A stretch of DNA of 56,140 nucleotides from a virus (taxonomy: Duplodnaviria; Heunggongvirae; Uroviricota; Caudoviricetes): the IMG/VR virus record IMGVR_UViG_2563366805_000004, positions 1 through 56,140 of that record, one strand, 5' to 3'. Made by a program: the position numbers and the translations under genes. Under the pieces are notes generated by a model that was given only the letters and a program-made list of their open reading frames with translations, did not search any database and had not been told where the DNA came from. Shown here piece after piece: positions 1,491-19,596 of the stretch; the stretch's first letter is position 1, and each line of letters begins with the position of its first letter.

Positions 1491-1549
1491 GTTCTTTTCC
1501 TCTGGACGTCGCACTGTTGCGCGGCGTCCTAATTCTTTCTGGGCTGGTT

Positions 1550-2965
1550 TTATTCGGCGTCAGAATTGTTTTGGTGTTTGAGCTCGGCAAATTTGGCAGC
1601 CATCGTTGGGTTGCCGCGCGTGAGTCGCTTGACCGTCAGGTCTTCGGCTTTATCGTTGGCAAGCCGAAGATTGTTGGCGGACTTGTGCAGGGCTTCTTTG
1701 GTCTTTTCAAGGTCCTTGATGGCTTCGTCGATGCGCTTGACCGCTTCTTCAAACCCATCTGAAGCCAAACGCCAGTTGCGACCGAATGCGGTCTTGAAGT
1801 CATCGAGCTGGGTTTCAAATTGGGTGATGTCGATGTTCTGCGCCTTCACCAGCGCCAGCTCGGACTTGTATTGAAGTGACTTCATCGCTGCATTGCGTAG
1901 TAGCGTGATGATGGGGATGAAGAACTGAGGCCGAACGACATACATCTTCGGGTAGCGGTGAAACACATCAACGATCCCAGCGTTGTAAAGTTCACTGTCT
2001 GGCTCCAGCAGGGAAACCAGCACGGCGTATTCGCAACCTTTTTCGGTGCGGTCCTTGTCGAGCTCCTTGAAGAAGTCTTCGTTTTTCTTCTTGGTTGCTG
2101 TTTCGTCGCCTTCGTTCTTCATCTCGAACATGATCGAGACGATCTCGGTGCCTGCATCATCCATGTCCCGGAAGATGTAGTCGCCCTTGCTGCCGGTGCG
2201 AACGTCGTTGTCTTTTTCGAAGTAGGCCATTGGGAATGCGGTGGCTCGGAGACGGTTAAACTCAATCTCGCAATGCTGCTCCAGGGTTTCCCCAATCATC
2301 TTGGTCGACAGCCGTGCCTTCATGTCCCGCAGACGTACAATCTCACCATCGCGATCTTTAAGCTGTGTTTCGTATTTATCTTTGAGTGCAGTCTCGGCAA
2401 GTTGCTTTTCCAATGCTGCTCGCTCTAGTCCGTTCTTGAGTTCGTCACGCTCCTTCGTCACCACGCTGACCGCTTCGGTGAGCGCGAGCTTTTGTGTAAC
2501 TTCGCCCGCTGCAAGCTTGGCCTGCAGACGCTGAATCTCCGCATCCTTGGTGGCCTCGGCTTGCTGTAGCTCACTTAATCGCTTCGCCTCGGCCAGTTGA
2601 GCTTTAGTTTCAATCTCTTGCTTTGCTTTTTCCAGCGCGTTCCTCAGTGCATCGCGATCTTTTTCTACCGCGCTCAGCGCCTCACTGACAGCAAGCTTTT
2701 GCGCCACCTCTCCTGCATCCAGCCTAGCCTTTAATGCCTGGATTTCGGCATCTTTTTCAGAAGCAGCCTTCTGCAATTCGCTGGTAACCTTGGCTTGAGC
2801 CAGCTCGACCGCATTTTGCTTGTCCCTTTCGGCCAGCTCAAGGCGTTCATGTAACTGCTTCTCAAAGTCAGCATCGCGAACCTGTTTCAGAATGTCTGAG
2901 TAACCAGCTTCATCAATCTTGAAAGCCTTGCCGCAATGGGGGCAGATGATTTCATGCATAGTCAT
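1550..2965 (-). CDS. Zn-ribbon plus long coiled-coil protein, DUF2130-like
   Basis: 471-aa ORF with N-terminal CPHCGK zinc-ribbon motif, a long E/K/A/L-rich heptad region and a conserved C-terminal domain; start overlaps the upstream stop by 4 nt (ATGA); GAAGGA RBS. Confidence 0.6.
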
Positions 2966-4842
2966 TTTCCTTCTACCTTGGCCAAAATTTGCTGGAGCAT
3001 CTCTGGCACCGCCCCTGCGGATTTGAGTGTCGCCGTGCGGTATGCGAGTTGGTTCTTCGAGAGACTAATACCTGTGGCAATCTCGATTTCACTGCAAGCA
3101 GCTAGCCACTCAGGCCAGTTGGCTACGAGAAATGATTCCAGATGGTCTTCAAAAATGGCGACTGTGTCGCCTACGACAGCTTCCGGAAAATCTTCTTCAG
3201 CAATACCGAAGTATTTCAGAGCTGTCCGGTTTTCTCGGGCATTTTTTGCAAGTTCTTCATCGATCTTGTTTTGCTGTTTTCCTTTGGCTTTTGCTCGCGC
3301 CGCACATGCTCTGTCAGCATCGAAAAGCGCATAAACCGGGATACCGAGTGCGGACAGGATGGCATGGACAAGAGGAATCGACGTCTTGCCTCCGACTGGG
3401 ACAATGGAAATACCAGCGGCTTCAAGCGCACCATGAGATATTTTGTCGCCTATACCGTGGAACACCGATGACTCGGTGGTACCCTCCACAAGAAAAGCGC
3501 GATGGGCAAAGAGGGCTACAGCCAGTTGCTCTGAAACGATGCCATCTAACTGACGTTCGACAACATCACCATTTACTATCTGGTGCAGCCTGGTCTTCAC
3601 ATCATCAATGGAGGCAAAGTGGATAGTCACAGTCGGAGTCTCTCCAGATGATCGCGTCAATCTCCTGACATGATCAAAATGGCGGGCCTCAAGGAAATAA
3701 GGGCTGTGCGTTGCATAGGTTACTTGGATACACTTGTCGGGGTCTTCAACAAGTGAGCGGAGCACTTTTGCAAACGCCTGTGCCTGAATCGGGTGCTGAA
3801 AGAGCTCAGGTTCTTCAATTGCTAAACAGATGACTCCGTCGGCTGAAGCTGCTCCCGATTGTGCCAAGAGCTGGAGCGCCGAGATCAGAATAGTCCGCTG
3901 AAAACCATGCCCCTGTCGCTCTACCGCTGTTTCGGTTGTACCATCGAGCACGGATACTTCGAACGTGGTCTTGGGGGCTTTGAGCTCTACCTCTGCGGGA
4001 GAAACCGTGACCGCCCGACCGGGTGAGTATGAGCAAACAACCTCGTTAAGCTGCGTCGTCATCACCTTAAGCTGGGCTTGGAATTTCTCTTCGTAGACTT
4101 TCTGCTGCTTTGCTCTGGACTCCTCGACGATTGCCGCAATCTCCTGATCTGCCGCTGCACGATCAACGGAGCGTTCCAGGATGCGTCCGATGATGCTCGA
4201 TTTACCGTCAATGGACTCTTCGCTTGCACGAAGGTCTGCAGTCACCAGCACAAAATCGAAGAGGCCGCTCATCTTGCCGCCGCTGTTGAAACCAAAGAAG
4301 TTGGTTTGCAGCGATTCGGGGGCGTCTACGAGTAACTCTGTATGTGATGCCTCCCAGGTAGTCATTGCCTGGTCAATGGCTGTACCGGTAGTGGCTGTAG
4401 GAAGCTCCAGCTCTGGACGACTAGTTCTGAGATTTGTATAAAGCTCCCTCTTCGCCGCTACGCCATTTGCAGTTTTGATTACGTTGAACTCTGGGAATCC
4501 CTTTGCGTTTGCAGAGAGCACATCGGTGCCGTCAGCTGAACGGCGCTTCCACGCCGTGAATGTAGCTGCGCCCTCTGGAGTGTACTTACCAAGCGCCTCC
4601 CGATCCTTTTCGGTGAGATCTGCGAATGTGACTTGCACCTCGATGTCTTCGCTAGCTTCTCCAAAGGAGCAGTCTTTCTCTGTCAGCGAGCCGGGCTTGC
4701 CGTTGAAGAACCAATCGAGTGCATGTAGCACTGTCGACTTGCCAGCGCCGTTCGGCCCTATGAATGTCGTAACGGAGTCGAAGGGAATCGTGACGTCTTT
4801 GAGTGCCCGGAAGTTTTTGATGCGAACGGATTGAATCTTCAT
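2962..4842 (-). CDS. OLD-family ABC-ATPase / Toprim nuclease
   Basis: 626 aa; N-terminal [14 protein letters not shown]...[11 protein letters not shown] Walker A; C-terminal Toprim signatures FLVEGTTE and a DxD motif (ALFDAD). Confidence 0.8.
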
Positions 4843-4876
4843 TTCAGTTTTATTCCCTTATACCTGTTGTGATCTA

Positions 4877-5566
4877 TCAATGTTTGAGTTCTTCCAGTTC
4901 TATTTTCAACATTCGCAGTTTGGCGTTGATCTCTACCTTGCGGTTGAATTGTTTTTCTTTGGCAAGTCTGCTGGCTATTTTTTCAACCTCACGTTGCTTG
5001 GCTGCAACCAGTTCGACACGTGCGACCAAATCCGCGAGACTTTCTTGTAGGCGCGCGGGCGTGGAGATCAGGCTGTGAAGCAACTGCTCATACAAGCCGC
5101 CCAAGTCGAGTGCTAAGGGCATGGCGGCGCGCTCACAGTCACTCGGCAACCAGGCTGTTGCAAAGTAGTCACTCAAGACCCAACGGCTGGCGTCTGACTC
5201 ATTGGGGCGTTTGTACGCAGCGATCACCTTTGTTCGGCCATCAAAGCTCAGCTCGAAGATAATGGGAAACTGCACTGCGCCATCGATGCAACGCAAAACG
5301 TCCAGATTCAGCTCCGATGCCTTGAGCTGGATTGAGAAAATCTGAAGCTCTGGTACTCCCAGCCTGGCGGGCAGGTTGATCGTTTCCGGAGCCAACTTGT
5401 ATTGCCAGACGATCTGCTCCACCTGCTCGACGAACAAGTCCTTCAGCCTCGTATTGGCGCCGCTGTGTTCGTAGATCTTATTCTTTGGCAGGGTACGACC
5501 AAAGACAGCCTGCTTCGGATAGTTGATGAACGCGGTATTCGACTCAAATCGCGCAGACTGACTCAT
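4877..5566 (-). CDS. DUF4391-like protein
   Basis: 229-aa ORF, 4-nt overlap with helicase stop; family assignment is from recollection of this domain next to helicase/methyltransferase genes, not verified. Confidence 0.5.
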   Translation of the reverse strand: MSQSARFESNTAFINYPKQAVFGRTLPKNKIYEHSGANTRLKDLFVEQVEQIVWQYKLAPETINLPARLGVPELQIFSIQLKASELNLDVLRCIDGAVQFPIIFELSFDGRTKVIAAYKRPNESDASRWVLSDYFATAWLPSDCERAAMPLALDLGGLYEQLLHSLISTPARLQESLADLVARVELVAAKQREVEKIASRLAKEKQFNRKVEINAKLRMLKIELEELKH

Positions 5567-8500
5567 CCGGCCTCCTGAATCACGAGGAAGGTAATCAGTT
5601 CGAAGTCGTCCAGTCCGACGATAGTATTGACCAACGCGGTGGTCTTTCCGCTGCAGAAGAGGCTGTCCAGATCCTTATCTTCCTTCACCTCGATCATTGA
5701 GCGGATGGCCTTGCCAAGCAGGTCCGAATACATCTGCATCTTGCGGCCATCGGCCGTTTCCTTATTGAACAGGAGACAGGCATCTGTAATAGGCTGGGCT
5801 TGTCCCTTGCAGCAGGTGCGAACCAGATCCAGCAAACGTTTGACTTCGGTGTAATCGTGAATGACTTCCCCCTCGCGATTAATGTAGACGAGGTAATAAG
5901 GGTGCAGGCGGTTGTGCTGACTGACGTTGACGCTTGGATTCCGGTTGCGTAGCGTGAAGATTACACCCGGGCGTAGGCCCATCTCCGGCTTGGCAGGCAC
6001 TACGGCGTGCATCCCGCTTGGCACGTTGCTCATTTCGCCATTGGCCTTCACATAGTTGAGCAAGTCCATTCGGAAGTCATTGAGCCCGAGATCAGTAATC
6101 GACACTCCGGTTTTCAGGTCTTCCAGCTCAATCACTTCCTCTTGCAAACGTCGCAATTGCTCTTTGCGATAAGACACATCGTTGGCTTGGGCGCTCAGCA
6201 CATTGTCGTCACCGGTGGCAGTGACATCGGCAATCATCATTCGGCTTTCAACCCGTTCCTTCAGGTTGATGTATTCGTCGAGCGAGATGTCTGGCCAGTA
6301 GTTAACCAGTTGGATGCTGCTGTTGGGTGAGCCGATGCGATCCACACGGCCGAAGCGCTGGATGATGCGCACGGGATTCCAGTGGATGTCGTAGTTGATG
6401 AGGTAGTCGCAGTCCTGTAGGTTCTGGCCTTCAGAGATACAATCGGTGCCGATCAACACATCTATCTCTGCCTCCTCATTTGGCAGCACGATGGCTTTCT
6501 CCTTCGAGTGCGGCGAGAAGAGGGTGAGCAGTTCCTGGAAGTCATAGCTCTTCTTGAGCGTGCTCTTCGGTGCCCCTTTGCCGGTGACTTTTGCACTGTG
6601 CAAGGTCTGTGTAGCCAGCAATTCCGGAGCCAAATTGGCATACAGATAGTCAGCGGTGTCGGCGAAGGCGGTGAAGATCAGCACCTTCTTGTTGCCAGGA
6701 TTCAGCGGTGCTGCGATCTTTTCCAGAACCAGTGCTTTGAGATGCTGCAGTTTGGCATCATCGGCAGCCGTGATCTTGTTCATCGACGTCAGCAAAGCAT
6801 CAATGATTTCCAGATCGACCTTCAGCTCGTGCTCCCAGGAAGGCAAGTCCATATCGGCGAGGCTGATTTTGACCTTGCCACCGATCTCACTGTCGCCATT
6901 GCTTGGCAGGTCGTCGTCCGCGTCGAGGTTTTCTAACTGGTCGGTCAGGTCATTTATTCTGCTATCAATGCCACTGAGGCCGCCAGTCTCATTGAAAGTG
7001 CTGATCTTGGCCAGCGTATTAGTGTGGTTCGCGCGCAGGGACTTGAGCGTCAAGCGGAAAGACTCAATCGAGCTTTCCAGGCGCTTGAGCAGGTTGGTCG
7101 TCATCAATGCCTGCAAACTCTTTTCACGGTCGATTTGTTTAAGCTTGCCTTTCCCTGCAACCTGAGTGTCATACATCTCCTCGTACTTCTTGAGCCGACT
7201 GGGCAGAATGTAGCTGATCGGGGCATAAACGGCGAGCTTGAGCAAAGACAGCTGCTCGAAGATCTCGTTGAAGCTCATCACATCCGTTCGCTGCGTGAGC
7301 GGACAGTGGAACGACAAGGGTTTGCGGCGCTCGGGGAATTGGCCTATTTCCTTGGTGTCGTAGAAAGTCTGGATATGCTTGCGTGAGCGTGCGATGGTGA
7401 CGCTGTCGAGCAATTCGAAGAAGTCGAAGTCCAACGAGTCCAGGATGGCCCGCGCTGTGCGCTCTTCCGGTGGAAGCTTTGCCCATGCATTGAAGCTGGC
7501 CTGCGCACCACGGAAAATGTCCTCTACCGTCTTGCCGGTACGCAGCTTCTTGCTGAGGTTTTCGGAATCGCCTTCGTAGGCCAGTGCCAGTTGGTTGCGC
7601 AGGTCATTGAAGCGGTTGTTCACCGGGGTGGCCGAAAGCATCAGCACCTTGGTCTTCACGCCTTCCTTGATAACCTTGTTCATCAGCTTCTGGTAGCGGG
7701 TTTCCTTGTCCTTATAGGCGTCATTGTTGCGGAAGTTGTGTGACTCGTCGATGACGACGAGGTCGTAGTTGCCCCAGTTAATGCGATTCAGCGGTGTGCC
7801 AAATGACTCACCGCTCGTACGGCTGAGGTCGGTATGACAAAGTACGTCGTAGTTGAACCGGTCGCGAGCAAATATGTTGGTTTTGAGGTTACGGCTGTAG
7901 TTCAGCCAGTTGTCCGCCAGCTTCTTGGGGCATAACACCAGAACTGACTTGTTGCGCAGTTCGTAATACTTTATCACGGCCAGCGCGGTGAAAGTCTTGC
8001 CCAAGCCCACGCTGTCGGCCAAGATGCACCCGCTGTAGCTCTCAAGTTTGTTAATGATCCCGGTGGCAGCATCTTTCTGGTAATTGAAGAGTTTGTTCCA
8101 GATGAGCGTGTCTTGATAGCCTGTGCGGTCGTTCGGTAGGACATCCTCGTTGATGTCGTCCAGAAACTCATTGAAGATATTGTAGAGCATCAGGAAGTAG
8201 ATGCTCTCGGGCGAGTTTTCCTGGTAGACGGATGCAATGTGGTCGCAGATCTGCTCCGTTACATCCTCCAGCTTCTCAGGATCTTGCCAGATCTGGTTAA
8301 ACAGACTGAGGTAGGTCGCCGTAAACGTCGACTCGTCCATTTTGTTGACGAGGTTTGAGACAGCGTTGCCTTGCTGGTAGCCAAGATCGACGGCGGTAAA
8401 TCCGTGCAGTGGCATGTAGGCAGTCTCTGCGGCGGCGGCCTGAACACAAGCAAACTGCTGCATCGGAGCCTTGCTGCGATTGGACTTGAATGTTGCCTTG

Positions 8501-8844
8501 CGCCGCATCCAGTCCGCGCACTCTTTTGCAATTGCGCGCTGGGTCAGTTTGTTACGCAGCTGAATTTCGAACTCACTCCCGTACAAGCTCCGTTCGCGGT
8601 CAGCCTTCGGTATGTGAAATTCTCTGCGTTCCTTGCGAATCTTGTCGGTAACCTCGTTAGCGGTAAACGTCGGTGAGGTAAAGATGAATTGCAGCTCGTC
8701 GATTTTTTCCAGCTCTGCTTTGAGCGCTTCGAACGCGTACATCGAAAAGCAGGAGGCGGCGATCTTCAGGCGAGCACTAGGTTTGAGCGTCTGCTTTAGG
8801 TCGTCTCCGAGCAGGTGGTTGATATTGTCGATCAGTTCCATCAA
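5563..8844 (-). CDS. SNF2-family (SF2) helicase/translocase with ~250-aa N-terminal extension
   Basis: 1093 aa; motif I LADSVGLGKTFTA, motif II VVIDESHNFRN, motif III LMLSATPVNN, motif VI QRFGRVDRIGS; no recognisable nuclease motif seen by eye. Confidence 0.85.
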   Translation of the reverse strand: MMELIDNINHLLGDDLKQTLKPSARLKIAASCFSMYAFEALKAELEKIDELQFIFTSPTFTANEVTDKIRKERREFHIPKADRERSLYGSEFEIQLRNKLTQRAIAKECADWMRRKATFKSNRSKAPMQQFACVQAAAAETAYMPLHGFTAVDLGYQQGNAVSNLVNKMDESTFTATYLSLFNQIWQDPEKLEDVTEQICDHIASVYQENSPESIYFLMLYNIFNEFLDDINEDVLPNDRTGYQDTLIWNKLFNYQKDAATGIINKLESYSGCILADSVGLGKTFTALAVIKYYELRNKSVLVLCPKKLADNWLNYSRNLKTNIFARDRFNYDVLCHTDLSRTSGESFGTPLNRINWGNYDLVVIDESHNFRNNDAYKDKETRYQKLMNKVIKEGVKTKVLMLSATPVNNRFNDLRNQLALAYEGDSENLSKKLRTGKTVEDIFRGAQASFNAWAKLPPEERTARAILDSLDFDFFELLDSVTIARSRKHIQTFYDTKEIGQFPERRKPLSFHCPLTQRTDVMSFNEIFEQLSLLKLAVYAPISYILPSRLKKYEEMYDTQVAGKGKLKQIDREKSLQALMTTNLLKRLESSIESFRLTLKSLRANHTNTLAKISTFNETGGLSGIDSRINDLTDQLENLDADDDLPSNGDSEIGGKVKISLADMDLPSWEHELKVDLEIIDALLTSMNKITAADDAKLQHLKALVLEKIAAPLNPGNKKVLIFTAFADTADYLYANLAPELLATQTLHSAKVTGKGAPKSTLKKSYDFQELLTLFSPHSKEKAIVLPNEEAEIDVLIGTDCISEGQNLQDCDYLINYDIHWNPVRIIQRFGRVDRIGSPNSSIQLVNYWPDISLDEYINLKERVESRMMIADVTATGDDNVLSAQANDVSYRKEQLRRLQEEVIELEDLKTGVSITDLGLNDFRMDLLNYVKANGEMSNVPSGMHAVVPAKPEMGLRPGVIFTLRNRNPSVNVSQHNRLHPYYLVYINREGEVIHDYTEVKRLLDLVRTCCKGQAQPITDACLLFNKETADGRKMQMYSDLLGKAIRSMIEVKEDKDLDSLFCSGKTTALVNTIVGLDDFELITFLVIQEAG

Positions 8845-9746
8845 GAGTCAGCCTTTGTAGCGGCGCTATAGCCTGGTGCCAGTAAGGCGTTTTTCACGCC
8901 GTAAATCGCGAGATGATCTTTGAGCCATAAACGGTACTCCGGTCCATTTAGGCAATGATCGGGTGAGCAGTCAACCCGCCAGCGCTGCAACATATAGCCC
9001 ACTACAGCCGCGCGAACGCGCATCCTAATCGAGCCATCGGCCATCCCGTAGTCCATCTTGATGATCTCGGGGCGTTCAATGCGCGGGTGCGGCACGAAAT
9101 CCAACTCGACGATGCGCGTCCACTGGATATCATTATCCGGTCGTTCGTTGGCCTGTGGAACCTCTTCAAGCAATGTTGGCGCTTCGATGCGGGTGACGAC
9201 GAAATCCCGAAACTCTCCACTTTTGCGATCAAAGGCCCGGGCGTGCCAGCGCAGGCCGGTATCTACCAAAGCAAAGGGCACAATGACCCGTTCGGACTTG
9301 CCGCTGCTCATCGAGTGGTAGCGGATGGCGACGGGGCGCTTGGAGTGGATGGCTCGACAAATCACGGCCAACACATCCATCTTGGGTATGCTCAGGACTG
9401 TGGGGGATTCACAGGGTAGCAACGCCTGCATTGGGCCATTCACGCCATCGCCAAAGCCCAGAGCCAGCGCCGACAGAACACGCTGCGATGCGTGCTCGAA
9501 TAACGGAGAGAACGCCTGCCCGATACGATAGATCTTGTCGCTACCATCAAAGGTGATGTTATTCGGAGCGATTTCCCGGTACAAAGCCAAATCGCGAGTC
9601 GCTCCTGCTGGAGCAACGCCAAAGCGCTCAATCAAATCTGGGCGACCGATCTCACCGAAGAAGTAAAGCCGAAAATCGATGTAGGCCAGCCGTTCGCGCT
9701 GGACCTGGCTCAAGTCGTCAAGCCGCTTACAAGGGGGACTAGGCAT
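8841..9746 (-). CDS. WYL-domain transcriptional regulator, BrxR/CapW-like
   Basis: 301 aa; N-terminal wHTH signature ERLAYIDFRLYFFGEIGRPDLIERFGVAPAGATRDLALYREIAP; stop overlaps helicase start (ATGA); first gene of the co-directional operon. Confidence 0.8.
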   Translation of the reverse strand: MPSPPCKRLDDLSQVQRERLAYIDFRLYFFGEIGRPDLIERFGVAPAGATRDLALYREIAPNNITFDGSDKIYRIGQAFSPLFEHASQRVLSALALGFGDGVNGPMQALLPCESPTVLSIPKMDVLAVICRAIHSKRPVAIRYHSMSSGKSERVIVPFALVDTGLRWHARAFDRKSGEFRDFVVTRIEAPTLLEEVPQANERPDNDIQWTRIVELDFVPHPRIERPEIIKMDYGMADGSIRMRVRAAVVGYMLQRWRVDCSPDHCLNGPEYRLWLKDHLAIYGVKNALLAPGYSAATKADS

Positions 9747-11950: not shown

Positions 11951-12166
11951 CCGTTTCATGTTGCCACGTTGTTAATATCGGACACCACCTGTCCGCATTG
12001 CAACGTGCTGGCGGTCCTTACACACCGAGGGATGGCCTGTAACCCCCGCTACATCTGGCTTTTGCAGAAATAAAAAATAGTTTCTGTGGTGTCCATACCC
12101 TGTCCGCCCCCTTATTTAAAGTAATCACATCATTTTCAGTCAGTTAACTTCCACGGAGAACGTCTC

Positions 12167-12868
12167 ATGACACAGGCAGAACGCCGCCATGACCGGCTGG
12201 CTGTCAGACTGTCACTGATAATCAGCCGTCTGGTGGCGGGGGAAACGCTGAGTGTGCATAAGCTGGCCGCTGAGTTTGGTGTGTCGGTGCGCACGCTGCG
12301 GCGTGATTTTCGCGAGCGGCTGATGTATCTGGACCTGGAGTATCAGTCCGGATATTGCCGCTTACGTACTGCTGGCAGTGAAATGCAGATGGTGCCCGAC
12401 GTGCTTATCTTTGCTCACCGCAGCGGGCTGGCCGGACTTTTTCCAGGCCTTGACCGCCGTCTGGTGAACGCTCTGCTGATGTGCGATGAGTCTCCCTGCG
12501 TGATAGCACCAGCTAATCCGGTTCCTTCGCCCTCAGGAGCATTGTCTTTCTGGAGACTGATTCAGGCCATTACCGGGCGCAGGCGGGTGACGCTGATTGC
12601 GGAGGGGCGACGCTGTGAGCGCCTGGCTCCCTGCCGATTACTCATACACCAGCAGACCTGGTATCTGGTGGCTGAACACTACGGGCATATCGCCGTATTC
12701 ACACTTGATGAAATCCATCTGATTCATCCTTTGCAGGAGACTTTTCGCCGCAATGACAGTCTGTGCCGTCTGACTGAAGACCCGGTTTTCATTCAGGCCT
12801 TACCCCATTTTCGCTTTATCCAGCAGTCACTGCTTACGTTTGTTCCGGCTGACAGCCCACCGGAATAG
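12167..12868 (+). CDS. yfjR: YfjR-like HTH transcriptional regulator
   Basis: 233 aa; N-terminal HTH ([21 protein letters not shown]); position after yfjQ. Confidence 0.7.
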
Positions 12869-12908
12869 CGTAGGCGTTGTTATCAACCCGGCAACAGGGA
12901 GGAACCCG

Positions 12909-13154
12909 ATGCCCGTTATTGCCATTATCGCCATTGTTGTTATCGTCATCATTCTGAACAAAACCGGGGTGTCCGACAGCCTCATCGCCCTGACGCTTGC
13001 CACCGTTGCCGCTCTGCTGACGGGCGGCGGTGCAGCCGGTGCTGCCAGTGTTGCACTGACGCCGTTCGTCGGTGTGCCGGTGGGTATTTTTGTGGGGATT
13101 TATGTCTTTGCCAAAGTGGTTCGTCTGATTTCAGGAAAAAATAATGAAACGTAA
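12909..13154 (+). CDS. Small hydrophobic membrane protein (YpjK-like)
   Basis: Start at MPVIAIIAIVV with GGGAGGAA RBS; two predicted TM segments. Confidence 0.5.
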   Translation: MPVIAIIAIVVIVIILNKTGVSDSLIALTLATVAALLTGGGAAGAASVALTPFVGVPVGIFVGIYVFAKVVRLISGKNNET

Positions 13155-13587
13155 AACACTACCTCTGCTGGGGCTGGTTGCCGCCACTCTGTTTCTGAGC
13201 GCCTGCGATGACAGGAGTGATGACCTCAAAGCTATCAGTAAATTTAAGGACCTCACGCCTCCGCGCTTCAGCGATGTTGTCAGCCGTCAGGATGATGTCA
13301 GCGAAGAATGGTCCCAGGTTGGCTTCTCATCCGGTCTCACCCTGCAGGTCTTACGTACCCGCCAGTCGCCCGATGGCTGCGAGGGAGGCAGTTACTACTA
13401 TCTGGTGGATATGGAGGAAAAAACCGTCCAGCCGCTGATGAATGCGCTATGTATTGCCGACAACATCAGCCTGGAATACCACGAGAAAACTGACCCGCGC
13501 ACCCGGGAGCGTTTCCTTGAATATTCCCATGACGGCAAACTGATGGGACGGCTGCTGATACCCTCAAATCCTGATAACCGGGAATAA
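13144..13587 (+). CDS. yfjS: YfjS-like lipoprotein
   Basis: 147 aa; signal peptide with lipobox LFLSAC. Confidence 0.65.
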   Translation: MKRKTLPLLGLVAATLFLSACDDRSDDLKAISKFKDLTPPRFSDVVSRQDDVSEEWSQVGFSSGLTLQVLRTRQSPDGCEGGSYYYLVDMEEKTVQPLMNALCIADNISLEYHEKTDPRTRERFLEYSHDGKLMGRLLIPSNPDNRE

Positions 13588-13610
13588 ATACAAAGACAAA
13601 GGAGACAGAA

Positions 13611-14078
13611 ATGAAAGTACGTTCACTAAGCCGGTATGTGCTCTCAGGCGTGCTGCTTACCAGCTTTAATGCCTCAGCGGTTCCCGGACTATGGCAGCAG
13701 GGTTATGGCCAGGGCAATGCGGAATACAGCGTGACGGATGGCAGCGGAAAGATATTTACCATCAACTGCACGGAAAATCCGGACCAGAACGGTATTTACC
13801 AGCACTCGGTTTTTCTGACCCTCGCAGGGGATAAAACGATCAGCTCGCATGATGACAGTACCGACATCACAGTGGTGATGGACCATAAGCAATATGCCAT
13901 TCCCTCAACCCTTGGCTGGCGTAACGGGGATAATGCCTGGTTTAGTTTCATCATGGATATCCGTAAGGCCAGTCAGTTCGACGTCTACGTTAATGACCGC
14001 AAAGCGGGGACCTTCAGCGTTGACCTGACGAACGCTACGAAAGCACTGCCAACATTAGCAGACTGCACTAACGAGTGA
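13611..14078 (+). CDS. yfjT: YfjT-like secreted protein
   Basis: 155 aa; N-terminal signal peptide (LLTSFNASA); position after yfjS. Confidence 0.6.
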   Translation: MKVRSLSRYVLSGVLLTSFNASAVPGLWQQGYGQGNAEYSVTDGSGKIFTINCTENPDQNGIYQHSVFLTLAGDKTISSHDDSTDITVVMDHKQYAIPSTLGWRNGDNAWFSFIMDIRKASQFDVYVNDRKAGTFSVDLTNATKALPTLADCTNE

Positions 14079-14107
14079 CAGTTGTGCTTTCCATCCATAA
14101 CAACATA

Positions 14108-14141
14108 CCTGACTGCCAGGAGCAGTCAGGGTTTATTTTTT
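14108..14141 (+). terminator. Rho-independent terminator downstream of yfjT-like gene
   Basis: cctgactg / cagtcagg 8-bp stem followed by gtttatttttt. Confidence 0.6.
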
Positions 14142-14275
14142 CCTTTTTATTTCCACCGATTAGTCCAGGCACTTCCGAATGACGATCACAGTGGCCAGTT
14201 TTAGTTGACTATATAGCAATGATAAAATAATCACGTGTTATGTTGAGATTGTTTATTTAGCGGTTGAGAGAAACT

Positions 14276-14464
14276 ATGGATAAAATTTGTGATAAGTGTG
14301 CACACATGATGAGTGCATGCACCTGTGGAACTTGTGAGAACTGTGACGAGAAAGAGTCGGACTGCACCTGCAAAAAATGTAGCCAGTGCAATAAACTTGA
14401 GGACTTCTGCTCTTGCAGAGTTTGTGAAGAATGTAGTGAAAAAGAAGCAGAGTGCTGCTGTTAA
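14276..14464 (+). CDS. Cysteine-rich small protein (62 aa) with three ~15-aa CxCxxCxxC repeats
   Basis: MDKICDKCAHMMSACTCGTCENCDEKESDCTCKKCSQCNKLEDFCSCRVCEECSEKEAECCC; strongly periodic Cys spacing with TGT/TGC codons; GAGAGA RBS-like sequence upstream. Confidence 0.45.
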   Translation: MDKICDKCAHMMSACTCGTCENCDEKESDCTCKKCSQCNKLEDFCSCRVCEECSEKEAECCC

Positions 14465-14699
14465 AATGTTAACAATACAGGCTGCAGGAGCTGCCTGCCT
14501 GCAGCTTCGATTGCCGACGTCAACCGCTCCCAGTTGGTTAGGGTACTTCGATTCTTGCAACAATCGCTGGACTCACAGCACAAAGCGGACAAACTTTCTA
14601 AACCAAAGGTCCGCTGAGAGCGAGAATCAGACGTTACTAAGACATTACGTACACCACGGCGCCTTAGTCGACTGGAAATAGGTATTCCTACCATAAGGT

Positions 14700-16322
14700 T
14701 CATTCTTCCTCATGATAATCGCTCTTGCTCCATAATGGCTTGATAGCGTGATAGGCGCCACTGAATGGACATTTAGAATTTTTGTTCCGCTGGATTCGGA
14801 GCAAATCATCAATATCCTTTTCGATGATTTTTTTTACCTGTGAATGGTATCGCTGAAGTGAGACATCACTAATGGACTTTTCAAAGCGGAGGCTGGTGTC
14901 TTGATTCACAAGATCGTAAACACCGTCTTTTATTTTCATTCTGTTGCCTTCAGGGATGCCCATTTTCAGGTCATAGCATTTCAACCCGGCCAGACGGACT
15001 TCGACACCGACGCGCTCAGTACGTGTTTTCTTGTGGCTAATCAGAAGCACTTTATTGTTTTCGTACCATTTTTCAAAGGATTGCACTATATCTCTGTTCT
15101 TTTGTTGGTTGCCTTGAGAAGCGCTGTAAAAATGATAACTGTTCGAACTATAGACGTGACGTTCCCGGTCGGAGATTTGCGGAATGGTACCTTTCTGCCT
15201 GCGCATCTGGTCGGCAGGCTGCTCATAAATACGTAGTAAGCAGTCTGCGAGAGAGTCTGAAGCATCATGCAACGTATTGGTCTGGATGAGTTTCAGGAGG
15301 GTATCTCGCTTGATTGAAATCTGGCAATAATCGCTCTCCCAAGCCACTGTCGGTTGCTGCTCTTCCCCTTCTGAAGAGGTGGTGATATCAGGCGTAACAG
15401 TGGTGAATTTCCAGACAAATGGTGTTGATTGCGAATATTTGAAATACATCTGAAGCTCAGCCAGCCACTGTATGATCTCCGAAGCATAAATGCCCACATA
15501 CTGGTCGAACAGATATTCGGCGTACTGAGGTGCGCACTGTTCAACAATCCTTTCAATGAACTCAACACGCCCTTCATCGTTAATTAACTTTATTATTTTA
15601 TGGAATACGCCGTTCTTCCGCCTTTCTCCTATCAGAAAATTTGTGTGAACTTTTTCAAATTCGGACAGCCAGTCGGGAGTAACAATGCCGGCATCATGCA
15701 AAGCGGTAATTAAGTTGTAAATTGCATCAGCAAGTATCGGAAGTGAATCTATTTTGTGGAAATCGTTCAATCGGGAAAGTAGCTCCTGGCTGCATGAGTG
15801 CGCAATGGAAAGGTCCTGATGGCAGTAGCCTTTTCGTGCCTGAGGCGGGATTGGCGAACAATGTGTCGGGCCCTCGGCCAAGATGGCAAACATATCATCG
15901 TGAATAAACTGCTCCAGAAGTTTGCTTTGTTCCGTAAAGCGGAACCCCTGCTCTGTTGGCTGCCGGTTCATCTCTCTCCAGGTCTTCAGACTGACCTTGC
16001 CATCATCAAAACCGGCATAGAGTTGATGCATGAAAATGAGTGCATCCATGAGGCTGTCCTGCTTTTGTTCCTTAAAATGAAACTCATATGTGTTCTGAGA
16101 GTAGATTTTGTTGATTTTATTGCTCTGGGCTCGCAGCTTTGTCAGTACCTTGTGCTGCTCATCAAACCACTTGCTGAATTCAGTATCTTCATTCAGTTGC
16201 CGGGCCTTAAGGATGAGGAGAAGTATCTGTTCGCTGATTGCATCATAAATGTTCGGGAAAGGGTTGGCGGCACCAGAAAGAAACGTGCAGAACAGAGACT
16301 TGTTATGTTCAGAATGGTGCAT
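14700..16322 (-). CDS. Hypothetical 540-aa protein, AT-rich (positional equivalent of CP4-57 yfjW)
   Basis: Long uninterrupted ORF in a visibly AT-rich segment with AT-rich promoter-like region upstream (16323-16660); no motif recognised by eye. Confidence 0.6.
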   Translation of the reverse strand: MHHSEHNKSLFCTFLSGAANPFPNIYDAISEQILLLILKARQLNEDTEFSKWFDEQHKVLTKLRAQSNKINKIYSQNTYEFHFKEQKQDSLMDALIFMHQLYAGFDDGKVSLKTWREMNRQPTEQGFRFTEQSKLLEQFIHDDMFAILAEGPTHCSPIPPQARKGYCHQDLSIAHSCSQELLSRLNDFHKIDSLPILADAIYNLITALHDAGIVTPDWLSEFEKVHTNFLIGERRKNGVFHKIIKLINDEGRVEFIERIVEQCAPQYAEYLFDQYVGIYASEIIQWLAELQMYFKYSQSTPFVWKFTTVTPDITTSSEGEEQQPTVAWESDYCQISIKRDTLLKLIQTNTLHDASDSLADCLLRIYEQPADQMRRQKGTIPQISDRERHVYSSNSYHFYSASQGNQQKNRDIVQSFEKWYENNKVLLISHKKTRTERVGVEVRLAGLKCYDLKMGIPEGNRMKIKDGVYDLVNQDTSLRFEKSISDVSLQRYHSQVKKIIEKDIDDLLRIQRNKNSKCPFSGAYHAIKPLWSKSDYHEEE

Positions 16323-16667
16323 TCGGACCTCTTTTTTGTGATATTTATCACAATTTATGATTATGTTTATGCCGTTCAGCTGAAGAGAAAATTGATAAAG
16401 CTGGCCATTTCAACACCGCCGCCTGTGTTTTCATCTAAAAATCATAGCAGAATGATTATAAAAATCACGAAAATTATCTATTTGATTTTAAATTGTGACT
16501 TTTCTTTACCAAAAAACGAAAAATAAAAAAAATTGATAAATTAACAACGTGGAATTTTAAAATTAATCAATTTAATAAAATAATTAACTAACTTGATTTT
16601 TTTATCGCCATATACCATTGTGTCTTCAGCGGGGTGTGTTGCCTCGCATTTCATGAGGGTGATAGAC

Positions 16668-17108
16668 ATGAGTGAAGTAACGACGCAGGATATTGATGAT
16701 GCATTGGAGCGAGCCCAGACGTTGAAAGATATAGCTGAGGAGTTCGTCGATATCGCTGATGGCATCAATAATGCTGAGCGTATCAGATTGGAGGAAGAGC
16801 GTGATATCGACATTGATAGCTCACGCTGGGTTCCTCTGGATGACATCCCACTGGGTGAAGAAGTGCTTCGAGTGAAAGATGATACGCCTAGCCTAGAAAG
16901 CGCAATCCAGACGCTGGAAAACCTGGCTGAAGGTAAAATTCCTGCTGCTGATATCATCGAAAAATTCCAAGAGGCGATGGAAGACCTGGAAACTGTCGAA
17001 GGTACGCTTCAAGATGTAGGCGCAGAAGAAGTCATCAAAGCCTCTCAAGCACCTTACGAAAATGACTTCGACGATGAGCAGGATGACGGGGAATACAGTG
17101 AAGAGTAG
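16668..17108 (+). CDS. Highly acidic small protein (~146 aa)
   Basis: Start at MSEVTTQDIDD; extremely D/E-rich throughout (…ENDFDDEQDDGEYSEE at C-terminus). Confidence 0.6.
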   Translation: MSEVTTQDIDDALERAQTLKDIAEEFVDIADGINNAERIRLEEERDIDIDSSRWVPLDDIPLGEEVLRVKDDTPSLESAIQTLENLAEGKIPAADIIEKFQEAMEDLETVEGTLQDVGAEEVIKASQAPYENDFDDEQDDGEYSEE

Positions 17109-17284
17109 GACAATTAACGGGTATGGCTACCCGTTCAACTTGAACCGCTCCATGTAGTTTGAATTCACGGGCCTGCTATTAAAGTCAGGCCCTGAATTTT
17201 TAAACAACACATGATAATCCTGCGTATTAAGGAACGTCCGCCAATGGCACAGAATGGTCTATCAGCATTATAAAAGTATTCAGA

Positions 17285-17445
17285 TATATATCATTCCTCT
17301 GAACATACCCGATTAGCGGCAGAAACTCACGATTCTGCCGCTTTTTTATTATTTTTCTGAGGAGTAATAATGAACAGTTCTGAAGATTTAAACTCGTTTC
17401 ACCAATCGTTTTATGACCTACCTCAGTGGGTATCGGCTGATTGCG
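17285..17445 (+). repeat. Copy B of ~160-bp direct repeat (see 10091-10250)
   Basis: Near-identical leader, RBS and first ~25 codons of the yfjP-type gene; homology ends inside the ORF. Confidence 0.6.
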
Positions 17446-17654
17446 CAGCAGGGCTACTGGTACCTGTCGGTATCACCGGCATTAACATTGAAGACGACCA
17501 GGGCAGTCACGTCCGCATGATAGTTTGCGATGCCGAAGGTCGGATGGCTGGCAGGCATGGAACTTTTAACCGGAAGCCGGTGAAGGTCTTAACCGCTATA
17601 TCTCCAAGCCAGATATCTTTACGGACTTATTCACCCATTACCAGCAACATTTAA
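17370..17654 (+). pseudogene. Truncated yfjP/yeeP-type GTPase remnant
   Basis: N-terminus MNSSEDLNSFHQSFYDLPQWVS parallels MNNSEGLKPFQQSLDGLPQWVS of the intact gene, but no P-loop follows and the ORF is only 94 aa. Confidence 0.55.
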
Positions 17655-17728
17655 CCTTCCCGAACACACATTATTACTCCATACGCCAGCCATCGCCGCT
17701 GGCGTTTTTTATTGACGGAGACATACCC

Positions 17729-18187
17729 ATGACAACAGCGGCACAAAACAATCTTGCATCTGCTAACGAGTCCGAATTTGAACTGACCGTAACGCAGGTA
17801 CCTGACGAACAGCGTCTCGATTTCTGGCCGCAGCACTTTGGCGCTATCCCGCAGTGGATAACGCTGGAACCCCATATTTTCGCCTGGATGGACCGCTTCT
17901 GTGATGAGTACTGCGGGGGTATCTGGTCCTTTTACACGCTCAGCAATGGCGGCGCGTTTATGGCCCCAGATGCTGAGAGTGGCGATAAATGGCACCTGTG
18001 CAACAGCATGAACGGCAATGGTGCGCAAATGAGCGCGGAAGCCGCAGGTATCGCTGTCTGCCTGATTGAATACAGCCATCACGCCTGTCGCACCGAATGT
18101 GATGCCATGACTGAGCACTATTACCGCCTGCGGGATTACGCCCTGCAGCACCCTGAATCCAGCGCCATTCTGAGCATTATTGATTGA
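17729..18187 (+). CDS. yfjX: Antirestriction protein (YfjX/KlcA/ArdB-like)
   Basis: 152 aa; conserved position and length in CP4-type islands. Confidence 0.8.
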   Translation: MTTAAQNNLASANESEFELTVTQVPDEQRLDFWPQHFGAIPQWITLEPHIFAWMDRFCDEYCGGIWSFYTLSNGGAFMAPDAESGDKWHLCNSMNGNGAQMSAEAAGIAVCLIEYSHHACRTECDAMTEHYYRLRDYALQHPESSAILSIID

Positions 18188-18678
18188 GGATACTCATGAT
18201 GGAACAGTCACTTACCCCACTGGCTCCGGTACTCCCACTGAGCGCTCAACGCACTGTGCAACATGCCCTGGCCCTGCTTGACCGCCACCTGCGCGAAACA
18301 GGCGTGGCATTCACTTCCACTCAGGCTGCCCGTGACTGGCTGAAACTGAAAATGGCGGGACTGGAGCGCGAAGAGTTTATGGTGCTGTACCTGAACCAGC
18401 AGAACCGGTTGATTGCCCACGAAACCCTATTTGTCGGTTCCATTAGCAGTACCGAGGTACATCCCCGTGAGGTGGTCAAACGCGCCCTGTACTTCAATGC
18501 GGCAGCAGTGATATTGGCTCATAACCATCCCTCCGGCGACACCTCGCCCAGCAAGGCAGATAAGACCATCACGCAGCGTCTGGTGCAGGCGCTCCAGCTC
18601 GTTGATATCCGTGTGCCTGACCACCTTATCGTTGGTGGCACGCAGATATTGTCGTTCGCTGAACACGGTCTGCTTTGA
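18184..18678 (+). CDS. yfjY: RadC-like JAB/MPN domain protein
   Basis: JAMM-like motif AHNHPSGDTSPSKAD; ATGA overlap with preceding gene. Confidence 0.85.
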   Translation: MRILMMEQSLTPLAPVLPLSAQRTVQHALALLDRHLRETGVAFTSTQAARDWLKLKMAGLEREEFMVLYLNQQNRLIAHETLFVGSISSTEVHPREVVKRALYFNAAAVILAHNHPSGDTSPSKADKTITQRLVQALQLVDIRVPDHLIVGGTQILSFAEHGLL

Positions 18679-18686
18679 GGTCTGCC

Positions 18687-18908
18687 ATGAAAATTATCAG
18701 TAAACGCCGGGCGATGACGATTTACCGTCAGCATCCGGCTTCCCGCATTTTTCGCTACTGCACCGGCAGATACCAGTGGCACGGCAGTGTCTGTCATTAC
18801 ACCGGTCTTGTAGTTCCTGACATTCCCGGTGTGCTGGCGATATACGCCGAACGCCGCCAGGACCGCAACGGGCCCTATGCCTGTCTGATGAGTATCACCC
18901 TGAACTGA
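18687..18908 (+). CDS. DUF987 protein (YeeT/YkfH/YpjJ-like)
   Basis: Start at MKIISKRRAMTIYRQ; conserved position between RadC-like and antitoxin genes. Confidence 0.6.
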   Translation: MKIISKRRAMTIYRQHPASRIFRYCTGRYQWHGSVCHYTGLVVPDIPGVLAIYAERRQDRNGPYACLMSITLN

Positions 18909-18925
18909 CAATAAAGGAAAAGCTG

Positions 18926-19246
18926 ATGAGGAGTAACGCTACATGGGGACTGCAACGTGATATCACACCGCGTCTGGGAGCCCGTCTGGTGCAGGAGGGC
19001 AACCGGCTGCACTATCTGGCTGACCGGGCAAGTATCACAGGTAAGTTTAGTGATGCCGAATGCCTGAAGTTGGATGCCGCATTTCCGCATTTTATCAGTC
19101 AGATGGAATCGATGCTGACCACTGGTGAAATGAACTCTCGCCATGCCCACTGCGCCATCCTGTATCACAACGGCTTTACCTGCGAAGCCGATACTCTTGG
19201 TAGTTGCGGCTACGTATACATCGCCATTTATTCCACTCAACGCTAA
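18926..19246 (+). CDS. yfjZ: Type IV TA antitoxin CbeA/YeeU/YfjZ family
   Basis: Near-identical to recollected YeeU (…[20 protein letters not shown]…[19 protein letters not shown]…). Confidence 0.85.
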
Positions 19247-19266
19247 CAAATTTCACGAGAGCAAAC

Positions 19267-19596
19267 ATGAAAACTCTACCTGCTACAATTTCGCGGGCGG
19301 CGAAGCCCTGTCTGACGCCCGTGGCTGCCTGGCAAATGTTACTGACACGTCTGCTAGAACAGCACTATGGCCTGACACTGAACGACACGCCGTTCAGTGA
19401 TGAAACTGTTATTAAGGAACATATTGATGCAGGGATCACCCTGGCCGATGCAGTCAACTTTCTGGTGGATAAGTACGAACTAGTTCGTATCGACCGGAAG
19501 GGATTTTCGTGGCAAGAGCAGACCCCGTATCTTTCCGTAGTGGATATTCTGCGAGCAAGGCGCTCTACCGGATTGCTAAAAGCCAAGGTGAAATAA
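19267..19596 (+). CDS. ypjF: Type IV TA toxin CbtA/YeeV/YpjF family
   Basis: Start at [12 protein letters not shown]; [14 protein letters not shown] and DAVNFLV motifs match CbtA family. Confidence 0.8.

What the first reader, a model, noticed from the sequence alone, without database searches (positions are those of the whole stretch)
16668..17108. Extremely acidic ~146-aa protein just upstream of the antirestriction gene
The D/E density is reminiscent of DNA-mimic proteins (Ocr/ArdA-type) that inhibit restriction enzymes or other DNA-binding defence proteins. Its position next to a KlcA/ArdB-type antirestriction gene fits an anti-defence role for the island.
Basis: inference. Interest (0 to 1): 0.45.

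Follow-up and report, generated by a model that had tools for sequence, protein, structure and literature searches.

The report
Acidic protein in mobile two-gene cassette
The very acidic 146-residue protein is real, folded and conserved. It belongs to a small two-gene cassette that moves between phages, plasmids and genomic islands, not to the neighbouring antirestriction gene, and its function is still unknown.

Summary
ORF 16668..17108 (+) encodes a 146-aa protein with 31.5% D+E and net charge -35, the most acidic ORF in the window. It is under purifying selection and is predicted to be a helical bundle with a disordered acidic tail.

The protein shows no sequence or fold similarity to Ocr, ArdA or any solved or viral structure. 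Its position near the ArdB/KlcA gene is incidental.

The gene is half of a ~2.6-kb cassette (14636..17244). The other half is a divergently transcribed 540-aa orphan protein (14700..16322, -). The same cassette occurs in a P2-like prophage tail hotspot, a lambdoid prophage end, integrase islands, an ICE-like element and IncF plasmids, never beside ArdB. A sister E. coli island carries a Gabija-like nuclease/helicase pair in exactly this slot.

The wider acidic family shares an invariant LDDxPxGEExxR motif. It also sits alone in temperate phages, or next to four other unrelated 460-560-aa proteins.

Best guess: a polyanionic protein-binding decoy or modulator in a conflict (defence or counter-defence) cassette. 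This mechanism is inferred, not shown. Both families are uncharacterised, so the cassette is a reasonable candidate for experiments.

The parts
16668..17108 (+). Gene for the 146-aa acidic helical protein (the finding). Predicted helices are 6-44, 63-87, 93-116 and 119-127, with a disordered acidic tail at 131-146. The family-invariant motif L57-D-D-I-P-L-G63-E64-E65-V-L-R68 lies at the loop/helix-2 junction.
   Evidence: ORF, composition; homologues, start; AF2 pLDDT 81.9, pTM 0.69; wider family, invariant G63 E64 E65; dN/dS 0.13-0.33
14700..16322 (-). Divergently transcribed 540-aa partner gene. It is an orphan, mostly alpha-helical protein with a conserved R163-x-G-Y-x-H-Q-D-L-S-x-A-H-S motif, and it is co-inherited with the acidic gene.
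16323..16667 (.). Shared 345-bp AT-rich (30% GC) divergent control region, alignable across loci.
   Evidence: alignment of five loci; promoter-like matches, not above chance
16337..16352 (.). Perfect CRP-type palindrome TGTGATATTTATCACA, 14 nt upstream of the 540-aa gene's ATG and abutting its AAGAGG ribosome-binding site. It is conserved in 4 of 5 diverged loci and absent in the P2-prophage copy.
   Evidence: only match in 56 kb; 0.07 expected; as RNA a weak hairpin, -5.8 kcal/mol
16590..16599 (+). Conserved AACTTGATTT element (contains the -35-like TTGATT), about 70 nt upstream of the acidic gene's ATG. Putative promoter of the acidic gene.
   Evidence: ACTTGAT kept in four of the five diverged loci, one mismatch in L008; the flanking bases vary; function inferred
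17161..17199 (+). Strong terminator-like hairpin (GC-rich stem followed by UGAAUUUUU) ending the acidic gene's transcription unit. It is conserved in the window, L005 and L034.
   Evidence: (dG -21 kcal/mol, z -6.1)
14636..17244 (.). Extent of the swapped cargo: the two-gene cassette inserted in the yfjT-DUF905 slot of a CP4-57-type island.
   Evidence: sister island collinear with window 12000-14635 and 17245-19506; cassette block 14686-17125 shared with all other loci; 14618-17251 at 96% in L034/L035

Best explanation
Shown: the acidic gene is one half of a self-contained, horizontally mobile cassette of about 2.6 kb. The cassette holds a 540-aa orphan gene, a 345-bp divergent control region, and the acidic gene with what look like its own promoter (inferred) and a terminator-like hairpin. 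Here it fills the variable cargo slot between yfjT and DUF905/ArdB of a CP4-57-type E. coli island. It is not part of the ArdB/RadC/CbtA backbone.

Inferred: the protein is a folded, elongated helical bundle whose solvent faces and C-terminal tail are covered with carboxylates. Its most likely mode of action is stoichiometric protein binding, as a polyanionic (nucleic-acid-like) decoy or modulator. The likely binding site is the invariant LDDxPxGEExxR loop/helix-cap. The likely target is its co-travelling large protein, or that protein's target.

Inferred from position only: the cassette is inter-MGE conflict cargo (phage defence or exclusion, or counter-defence). It occupies documented defence hotspots and replaces a Gabija-like pair in a sister island.
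For: Cassette unit:
- The same block (window 14686-17125) is the only DNA shared with seven other loci, from six different backgrounds.
- Those backgrounds are a Pectobacterium integrase island next to an OLD-TOPRIM/UvrD pair, a Vibrio ICE-like element, a Klebsiella P2-like prophage between gpS and gpV, IncF plasmids, a lambdoid prophage end, and the Siccibacter chromosome.
- The two genes co-diverge (dN correlation r=0.91) and both are under purifying selection.
- A sister island is collinear on both sides but carries an ATP-dependent nuclease plus a UvrD helicase in the slot.
- A tail-gene accessory/defence hotspot of P2 is documented (PMC13586616).

Folded acidic binder:
- AF2 gives pLDDT 82.
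- In helices H1 and H3, 17 of 21 acidic residues lie opposite the hydrophobic face.
- Acidity and the GEE motif are conserved down to about 25% identity.

Own transcription unit: a terminator-like hairpin with dG -21 kcal/mol.

Recurrent pairing: other family members sit next to other large proteins, namely a 506-aa orphan, a 533-aa DndB/ParB-superfamily protein, a 462-476-aa orphan and a 559-aa Sel1-repeat protein. In one plasmid the 540-aa gene is split by IS5 while the acidic gene stays intact.
Against: - There is no functional data at all.
- Neither protein hits PADLOC or PHROGs.
- The pairing is not obligate. More distant acidic relatives stand alone in temperate phages and beside an integrase. 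Relatives of the 540-aa protein at 41-55% identity lack any acidic partner.
- The large neighbours are unrelated to each other and are not basic: the 540-aa protein has net charge -8. Simple electrostatic neutralisation of the partner is therefore not supported.
- Divergent transcription is atypical for toxin-antitoxin or immunity pairs.
- The invariant motif sits at a helix N-cap and may be purely structural.
Confidence: 0.42

Rival explanations
1. Stand-alone anti-defence decoy. The acidic helical protein would mimic DNA and block restriction enzymes or other DNA-binding defence proteins of a new host. The large neighbours would be unrelated cargo.
For: [quoted passage not shown] These are described as acidic, elongated DNA mimics in PMC2836571.
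- The protein is folded and helical with a long first helix of 39 residues.
- Acidity is conserved across the family.
- The gene appears to be its own transcription unit (terminator-like hairpin; conserved promoter-like element).
- Distant relatives occur as single genes in temperate phages and alone beside an integrase.
- The family is confined to mobile elements.
Against: - It shows no sequence or fold similarity to Ocr, ArdA or any solved or viral structure.
- In Enterobacterales and Vibrio it is tightly co-inherited with the 540-aa gene across at least six backgrounds, which a free-standing anti-defence gene does not require.
- In two of the phage contexts it lies next to late or lysis genes rather than in an early or leading region: after NinG in L042 and before the holin in L046.
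- In this window it sits in a chromosomal island's cargo slot, not in an entry-expressed region.
Confidence: 0.25
2. Non-inhibitory accessory factor for large partner proteins. It would act as an adaptor, chaperone or assembly factor that several unrelated 460-560-aa proteins share, analogous in logic to small acidic effector chaperones.
For: - One conserved small protein sits next to five unrelated large proteins.
- One of these partners is a Sel1-repeat scaffold.
- The protein is small, acidic and cytoplasmic.
Against: - The predicted all-alpha fold is unlike the alpha/beta class I secretion chaperones (the comparison rests on general knowledge).
- No secretion genes are linked to the cassette.
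- Solo copies occur in phages.
- The 540-aa family exists without it.
Confidence: 0.1
3. Mimic of the SSB C-terminal tip. The invariant internal L-D-D-[ILM]-P-[FLY]-G-E-E would copy the SSB-Ct hexapeptide DDDIPF and sequester SSB-interacting replication or repair proteins.
For: - The motif is the only invariant stretch in a family that diverges to about 25% identity.
- SSB-Ct is DDDIPF, a hub for many partners (PMC5872125, abstract).
- The motif lies at the end of the only long loop and has lower pLDDT.
Against: - The motif is internal. SSB-Ct recognition is thought to need the free C-terminal carboxylate (general knowledge).
- It sits at a helix N-cap, where P-x-G-E-E could be purely structural.
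- There is no experimental or modelling support.
Confidence: 0.05
4. Spurious or decaying ORF with no function.
For: The window allele ends 3 codons early relative to its relatives (CAG to TAG). The gene is rare, found in 8 of 5,426 complete E. coli genomes.
Against: dN/dS of 0.13-0.33 between diverged loci, 49 homologue clusters plus distant relatives, a confident fold, and a conserved ribosome-binding site and start.
Confidence: 0.01

Closest known systems
Ocr (T7 gp0.3) and ArdA DNA-mimic antirestriction proteins
   Same: Small, cytoplasmic, very acidic proteins (here net charge -35 over 146 aa) that are folded rather than disordered and are carried only by mobile elements. Ocr is also all-helical and elongated (PMC2836571).
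   Different: There is no Pfam or NCBIfam hit, no PDB profile hit, and no Foldseek match to any solved or viral structure. The gene sits in a two-gene cassette with a large partner rather than in an early or leading region. Activity against restriction is untested.
ArdB/KlcA (PF03230), the neighbouring gene at 17729..18187
   Same: Both are small acidic proteins on the same island.
   Different: They are unrelated in sequence: the neighbour hits PF03230 at 4e-39 and the acidic protein does not. KlcA is globular and is not a DNA mimic (PMC2836571). ArdB is part of the island backbone, whereas the acidic gene is swapped cargo.
Hotspot-borne two-gene defence cargo of P2-like prophages, P4-like satellites and CP4-57-type islands (for example Gabija, PARIS)
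   Same: It has the same genomic niche: the P2 tail-gene hotspot (PMC13586616), integrase-proximal island slots, and the very slot that holds a Gabija-like nuclease/helicase pair in a sister island. It is a compact two-gene unit that moves as a block.
   Different: There are no recognisable ATPase, nuclease or other enzymatic domains and no PADLOC hit. The genes are divergent, not an operon. One component is a polyanionic helical protein that also occurs alone in phages.
Acidic helical inhibitor or immunity proteins (colicin DNase immunity Im7/Im9, barstar). This comparison rests on general knowledge.
   Same: These are small, acidic proteins (the Im proteins helical, barstar alpha/beta) encoded next to the protein they neutralise. 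Retention of the small gene when the large one is disrupted by IS5 fits that logic.
   Different: Here the small protein is the conserved element and the large neighbour varies, the reverse of cognate immunity pairs. The genes are divergent, and the large protein family exists without the small one.

Membership tests
Ocr-type DNA mimic (T7 gp0.3) | Sequence membership in the Ocr family | tested here: not met
   Pfam-A and NCBIfam scans gave no hit at E below 0.01. A profile search of PDB sequences gave nothing below E 0.2.
Ocr-type DNA mimic (T7 gp0.3) | Fold similarity to the Ocr structure | tested here: not met
   Foldseek of the AF2 model against PDB gave a best E of 0.4, all generic or designed helical bundles. 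Against BFVD viral structures the best E was 0.09. Ocr was not among the top 50 matches printed for either search.
Ocr/ArdA-type DNA mimic | High net negative charge on a folded protein | tested here: met
   Net charge -35, 31.5% D+E. pLDDT 82 with helices covering residues 6-127. Acidic residues lie on the faces opposite the hydrophobic moment.
Ocr/ArdA-type DNA mimic | Surface carboxylates spaced like the phosphates of B-DNA, and a dimeric elongated shape | not testable with these tools
   Model coordinates are not exposed to scripts and no multimer prediction was available.
Ocr/ArdA-type DNA mimic | Binds and inhibits Type I R-M (or BREX) enzymes | not testable with these tools
   This needs in vivo plating assays and in vitro binding assays.
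ArdA (conjugative-element antirestriction) | ArdA Pfam domain, and a location in the leading or early-entry region of a conjugative element | tested here: not met
   No Pfam hit. The contexts are cargo slots of islands, prophage hotspots and plasmid accessory regions flanked by IS elements.
ArdB/KlcA (PF03230) | PF03230 domain | tested here: not met
   Only the neighbouring ORF 17729..18187 matches PF03230 (4e-39). The acidic protein does not.
Type II toxin-antitoxin or cognate immunity pair | Co-transcribed adjacent genes with strict co-occurrence of the two families | tested here: not met
   The genes are divergent with a 345-bp spacer. Relatives of the 540-aa protein lack the acidic gene, and acidic relatives occur alone.
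Known anti-phage defence systems (PADLOC-DB v2) | Match of either protein to a defence-system model | tested here: not met
   There were no hits for the acidic protein or the 540-aa protein at E up to 1, and none of substance for the other partners except DndB.
SSB C-terminal tip (DDDIPF) interaction motif | D-D-[D]-I-P-F at the extreme C-terminus of a flexible tail | tested here: inconclusive
   A D-D-[ILM]-P-[FLY] core is present and conserved. However, it is internal (residues 58-62) at a helix N-cap. Binding to SSB partners was not tested.

The most novel reading that the evidence does not exclude
The acidic protein is the conserved core of a new, modular family of two-gene mobile-element conflict systems. 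One polyanionic helical decoy or sensor, marked by the invariant LDDxPxGEExxR motif, is combined with interchangeable effectors of about 460-560 aa. These include the 540-aa orphan fold, a DndB/ParB-superfamily protein, a Sel1-repeat protein and two other orphans. Phages carry the small protein alone, as the counter-measure or the ancestral form.
Probability: 0.2. Interest if true: 0.75.

Novelty: new member of a known kind. Interest (0 to 1): 0.45.

Why it matters
Neither protein family is in Pfam, NCBIfam, PHROGs, PADLOC or the PDB, yet both are confidently folded and under selection. They travel together through well-documented defence hotspots: the P2 tail hotspot, integrase-proximal slots, and the CP4-57 cargo slot that holds a Gabija-like pair in a sister island.

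That makes the 2.6-kb cassette a compact, easily cloned candidate for a new defence or counter-defence module. The acidic family, with its single invariant motif, is a candidate new class of polyanionic protein inhibitor.

The result also corrects an annotation-by-adjacency inference. ArdB/KlcA next door belongs to the island backbone and says nothing about this gene.

Tried and rejected
- **Homology to known families.** Pfam, NCBIfam, PHROGs, PADLOC and PDB sequence profiles gave nothing for either protein.
- **Common origin of the five large neighbours.** Rejected at the sequence and profile level.
- **Conserved 5'-UTR hairpin (16629-16647) as a regulatory RNA.** RNAalifold found no compensatory changes, so no claim is made.
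- **Phage JSS1_004 (anti-Dnd) as a relative.** It is a kinase/shutoff protein and is irrelevant.
- **Wider context surveys.** The genome contigs and metagenome scans returned few loci: 1 and 5. A degenerate-motif DNA scan of IMG/VR added only one new contig. No hits were found in the GenBank phage collection.
- **Literature search by accession numbers.** Nothing was found.
- **A broad alignment (A3) could not seed a locus search**.

Full report
**1. The observation**

- ORF 16668..17108 (+) is exactly as described: ATG to TAG, 146 aa. It has 25 Glu and 21 Asp (31.5%), only 11 Lys+Arg, no Cys or His, net charge -35 and a computed pI near 4.05.
- Among the 89 ORFs of at least 100 aa in the six frames of the window, nothing comes close; the next has 19% D+E.
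- All homologues start at the same Met (MS[DE]VT...). A GAGGG ribosome-binding site lies 8 nt upstream. RefSeq calls the same CDS 'hypothetical protein' (WP_016243785.1).
- Pairwise dN/dS between diverged copies is 0.13-0.33, so this is a real gene under selection. The 138-aa ORF on the opposite strand (16541..16957) is its shadow.
- The window allele carries CAG to TAG three codons before the ancestral TAA, trimming QDN from the tail.

**2. What the protein looks like**

- AlphaFold2 with a 42-sequence alignment gives pLDDT 81.9 and pTM 0.69. The model has helices at 6-44, 63-87, 93-116 and 119-127, a less confident loop at 45-62, and a disordered poly-acidic tail at 131-146.
- The helices are amphipathic. 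Most carboxylates point away from the hydrophobic face: 10 of 13 in helix 1 and 7 of 8 in helix 3.
- Nothing links the protein to known DNA mimics. There is no Pfam or NCBIfam hit. A profile search of all PDB sequences gives nothing below E 0.2. Foldseek against PDB and against BFVD viral structures returns only generic or designed helical bundles, with E at or above 0.09.

**3. The family**

- A word-indexed search found 49 clusters at 56-99% identity in Enterobacterales and Vibrio, all 'hypothetical'.
- An exhaustive HMM search of 1.8 billion representatives found 47 proteins. These include 107-150-aa relatives at about 25-35% identity that are just as acidic (D+E 21-35%, median 29%).
- Across this range only G63-E64-E65 are invariant. 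L57, D58/D59, P61 and R68 are conserved in most members, giving the motif L-D-D-x-P-[LFY]-G-E-E-x-x-R at the loop/helix-2 junction. There is also a conserved TL(D/E)D(C/V) near residue 113-117.
- No domain fusions were seen.

**4. Context in the window**

- The window is a CP4-57-type E. coli island and is 100% identical to strain PCP06171.
- Gene order, left to right:
  - Type III R-M, then a UvrD-like ATPase, DUF4391, an HKD-Snf2 helicase and a WYL regulator
  - yfjP-like GTPase, DUF932, DeoR/WYL, ypjK, yfjS, yfjT
  - the 540-aa orphan (-), then the acidic gene (+)
  - DUF905, ArdB/KlcA (PF03230), RadC, DUF987, YeeU/CbtA, ypjA
- The ArdB gene starts 620 bp after the acidic gene's stop. A strong terminator-like hairpin at 17161-17199 (dG -21 kcal/mol, z -6.1) and a second at 17315-17342 lie in between.

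**5. The key result: a mobile two-gene cassette**

In every close relative examined, the acidic gene is divergently paired with a 536-540-aa protein across about 340 bp of AT-rich DNA. The surrounding genes differ each time:

| Background |
|---|
| Pectobacterium integrase island next to an OLD-TOPRIM/UvrD (Gabija-type) pair |
| Vibrio ICE-like element beside its integrase |
| Klebsiella P2-like prophage, between tail genes S and V |
| IncF plasmids of Klebsiella, Raoultella and Citrobacter |
| End of a lambdoid prophage, between SRAP/colicin-like genes and UmuDC/tail-fibre genes |
| Siccibacter chromosome |

- At the DNA level, the only shared block is window 14686-17125 (14618-17251 at 96% identity in L034/L035). 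It ends within a few bases of the two stop codons.
- The two genes co-diverge (dN correlation r=0.91 over 28 non-independent pairs) with similar dN/dS.
- A sister CP4-57 island (E. coli 19SZHZ803Rt) is collinear with the window at 12000-14635 and at 17245-19506. Between these points it carries an ATP-dependent nuclease plus a UvrD helicase instead.
- So the acidic gene is swapped cargo, ArdB is backbone, and their adjacency is incidental. No antirestriction gene is called or annotated within the 5-8 kb inspected on either side of the cassette in the other contexts.
- A tail-gene accessory/defence hotspot in P2-like phages is documented (PMC13586616).

**6. The partner**

- The 540-aa protein has no Pfam, NCBIfam, PHROG, PADLOC or PDB-sequence match.
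- It has a conserved R-x-G-Y-x-H-Q-D-L-S-x-A-H-S motif.
- Relatives at 41-55% identity lack any acidic gene nearby:
  - E. coli copies in P4-like, integrase-proximal slots, which are very abundant clusters
  - a Proteus ICE
  - Serratia
- The absence of an acidic gene in these loci was checked by an HMM search of six-frame ORFs.

**7. The acidic family is promiscuous**

Other branches of the family sit next to other, mutually unrelated large proteins:

| Neighbour | Arrangement |
|---|---|
| 506-aa orphan | divergent |
| 533-aa PF14072 DndB (ParB/Srx-superfamily) protein, beside a Type II R-M | divergent |
| 462-476-aa orphan, in two Pectobacterium integrative elements and an IMG/VR contig | co-directional, downstream |
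| 559-aa Sel1-repeat protein | co-directional, upstream |

Still other members stand alone:

- Between an integrase and a YafO toxin gene.
- In temperate phages, between the early and late modules. The contexts are after NinB/NinG, between DnaB and the terminase, upstream of HNH/TerS/TerL, and immediately before a holin.
- So the small protein can probably act on its own, yet it has repeatedly become fixed next to a large accessory protein.

**8. Mechanism**

*Shown:*
- The protein is a folded polyanionic helical protein.
- It is restricted to mobile elements.
- It has a terminator-like hairpin directly downstream (its own promoter is inferred).
- It is a member of a mobile cassette sitting in defence hotspots.

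*Inferred:*
- It acts by stoichiometric binding, as a nucleic-acid-like decoy or modulator.
- Given the linkage, the most likely target is the co-travelling large protein or that protein's target.
- The cassette is most likely conflict cargo (defence, exclusion or counter-defence).

I put 0.42 on this composite. The cassette and backbone parts are near certain; the mechanistic part is weak.

The solo phage copies and the charge density favour it. The tight linkage, the lack of any fold resemblance, and the late-region positions in phages count against it.

Lesser rivals are a non-inhibitory adaptor or chaperone (0.10) and an SSB-C-terminal-tip mimic (0.05). The latter rests on the resemblance of DD[ILM]P[FLY] to DDDIPF (PMC5872125), but the motif is internal and sits at a helix cap.

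Points against a simple 'acidic antitoxin neutralises a basic toxin' picture:
- The genes are divergent.
- The partner is not basic (net charge -8).
- The partner family survives without the acidic gene.

One plasmid copy has the 540-aa gene split by IS5 while the acidic gene is intact. This is only anecdotal support for an inhibitor role.

**9. Regulatory details**

- The control region contains a perfect TGTGA-N6-TCACA palindrome at 16337-16352. It is the only one in the 56-kb window (0.07 expected), lies 14 nt from the 540-aa gene's ATG, and is conserved in four of five diverged loci.
- A conserved AACTTGATTT element (-35-like) lies about 70 nt upstream of the acidic gene.
- A GC-rich 5'-UTR hairpin (16629-16647) has no covariation support.

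**10. Verdict**

- The thing itself is an uncharacterised acidic helical protein family and an uncharacterised mobile two-gene cassette.
- I file it as a new member of the known kind 'hotspot-borne conflict cargo / acidic decoy-like proteins'.
- It is of moderate interest as an experimental candidate, with no function shown.

Noticed in passing
window 16337-16352: Perfect CRP-type palindrome TGTGATATTTATCACA abutting the ribosome-binding site of the 540-aa gene. It is the only match in the window (0.07 expected) and is conserved in Pectobacterium, Vibrio (one mismatch) and IncF copies, but deleted in the P2-prophage copy.
   Followed up: partly
window 1-9746 (L001 740-13447): The upstream minus-strand operon is a defence cluster. 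It holds a Type III restriction enzyme and methyltransferase, a UvrD-like ATPase, DUF4391, an HKD(PLD)+Snf2 helicase (PADLOC candidate C3a139, E 1e-127) and a WYL-domain regulator. A TrlF-family ATPase lies further upstream in the reference genome.
   Followed up: partly
L072 2729-7000 (E. coli 19SZHZ803Rt), equivalent to window 14636-17244: The yfjT-DUF905 slot of CP4-57-type islands is a swappable cargo site. A sister island carries an OLD-type ATP-dependent nuclease plus a UvrD helicase (Gabija-like by annotation) there.
   Followed up: partly
L011-L013 and L072 10559-12196: Distant relatives (about 42% identity) of the 540-aa protein are common in E. coli, in clusters with hundreds to about 1,800 member sequences. 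They sit in an integrase/AlpA/DUF3987 (P4-like) element next to a convergent 198-aa orphan, with no acidic partner.
   Followed up: partly
window 17106-17117: The window allele of the acidic gene has TAG where relatives have CAG. It therefore ends 3 residues (QDN) before the ancestral TAA.
   Followed up: yes
window 14264-14464 (+): A 66-aa ORF that is extraordinarily rich in Cys (repeated CxxC and CxC motifs, ending ECCC) lies between yfjT and the cassette, within DNA shared with the sister island. It is not annotated in RefSeq.
   Followed up: no
window 17370-17654: The DUF905 ORF between the cassette and ArdB matches PF06006 over only part of its length. PGAP annotates it as a frameshifted, partial pseudogene.
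   Followed up: no
L024 4977-7664 (Raoultella IncF plasmid): The 540-aa gene is interrupted by an IS5 element while the adjacent acidic gene remains intact.
   Followed up: partly
L016 3986-6378; L026 583-2781; L030 6001-7897; L070 1116-3542: Other branches of the acidic family are adjacent to a 533-aa DndB-family protein, a 506-aa orphan, a 476-aa orphan and a 559-aa Sel1-repeat protein respectively. None of these is related to the 540-aa protein.
   Followed up: partly
window 17116-17135: A stable 8-bp hairpin (ACGGGTA.../...TACCCGT, dG -10.3 kcal/mol, z -3.7) lies immediately after the acidic gene's stop codon, at the point where similarity to most other loci ends. Its role is unknown; it could be RNA stability or a recombination boundary.
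   Followed up: partly
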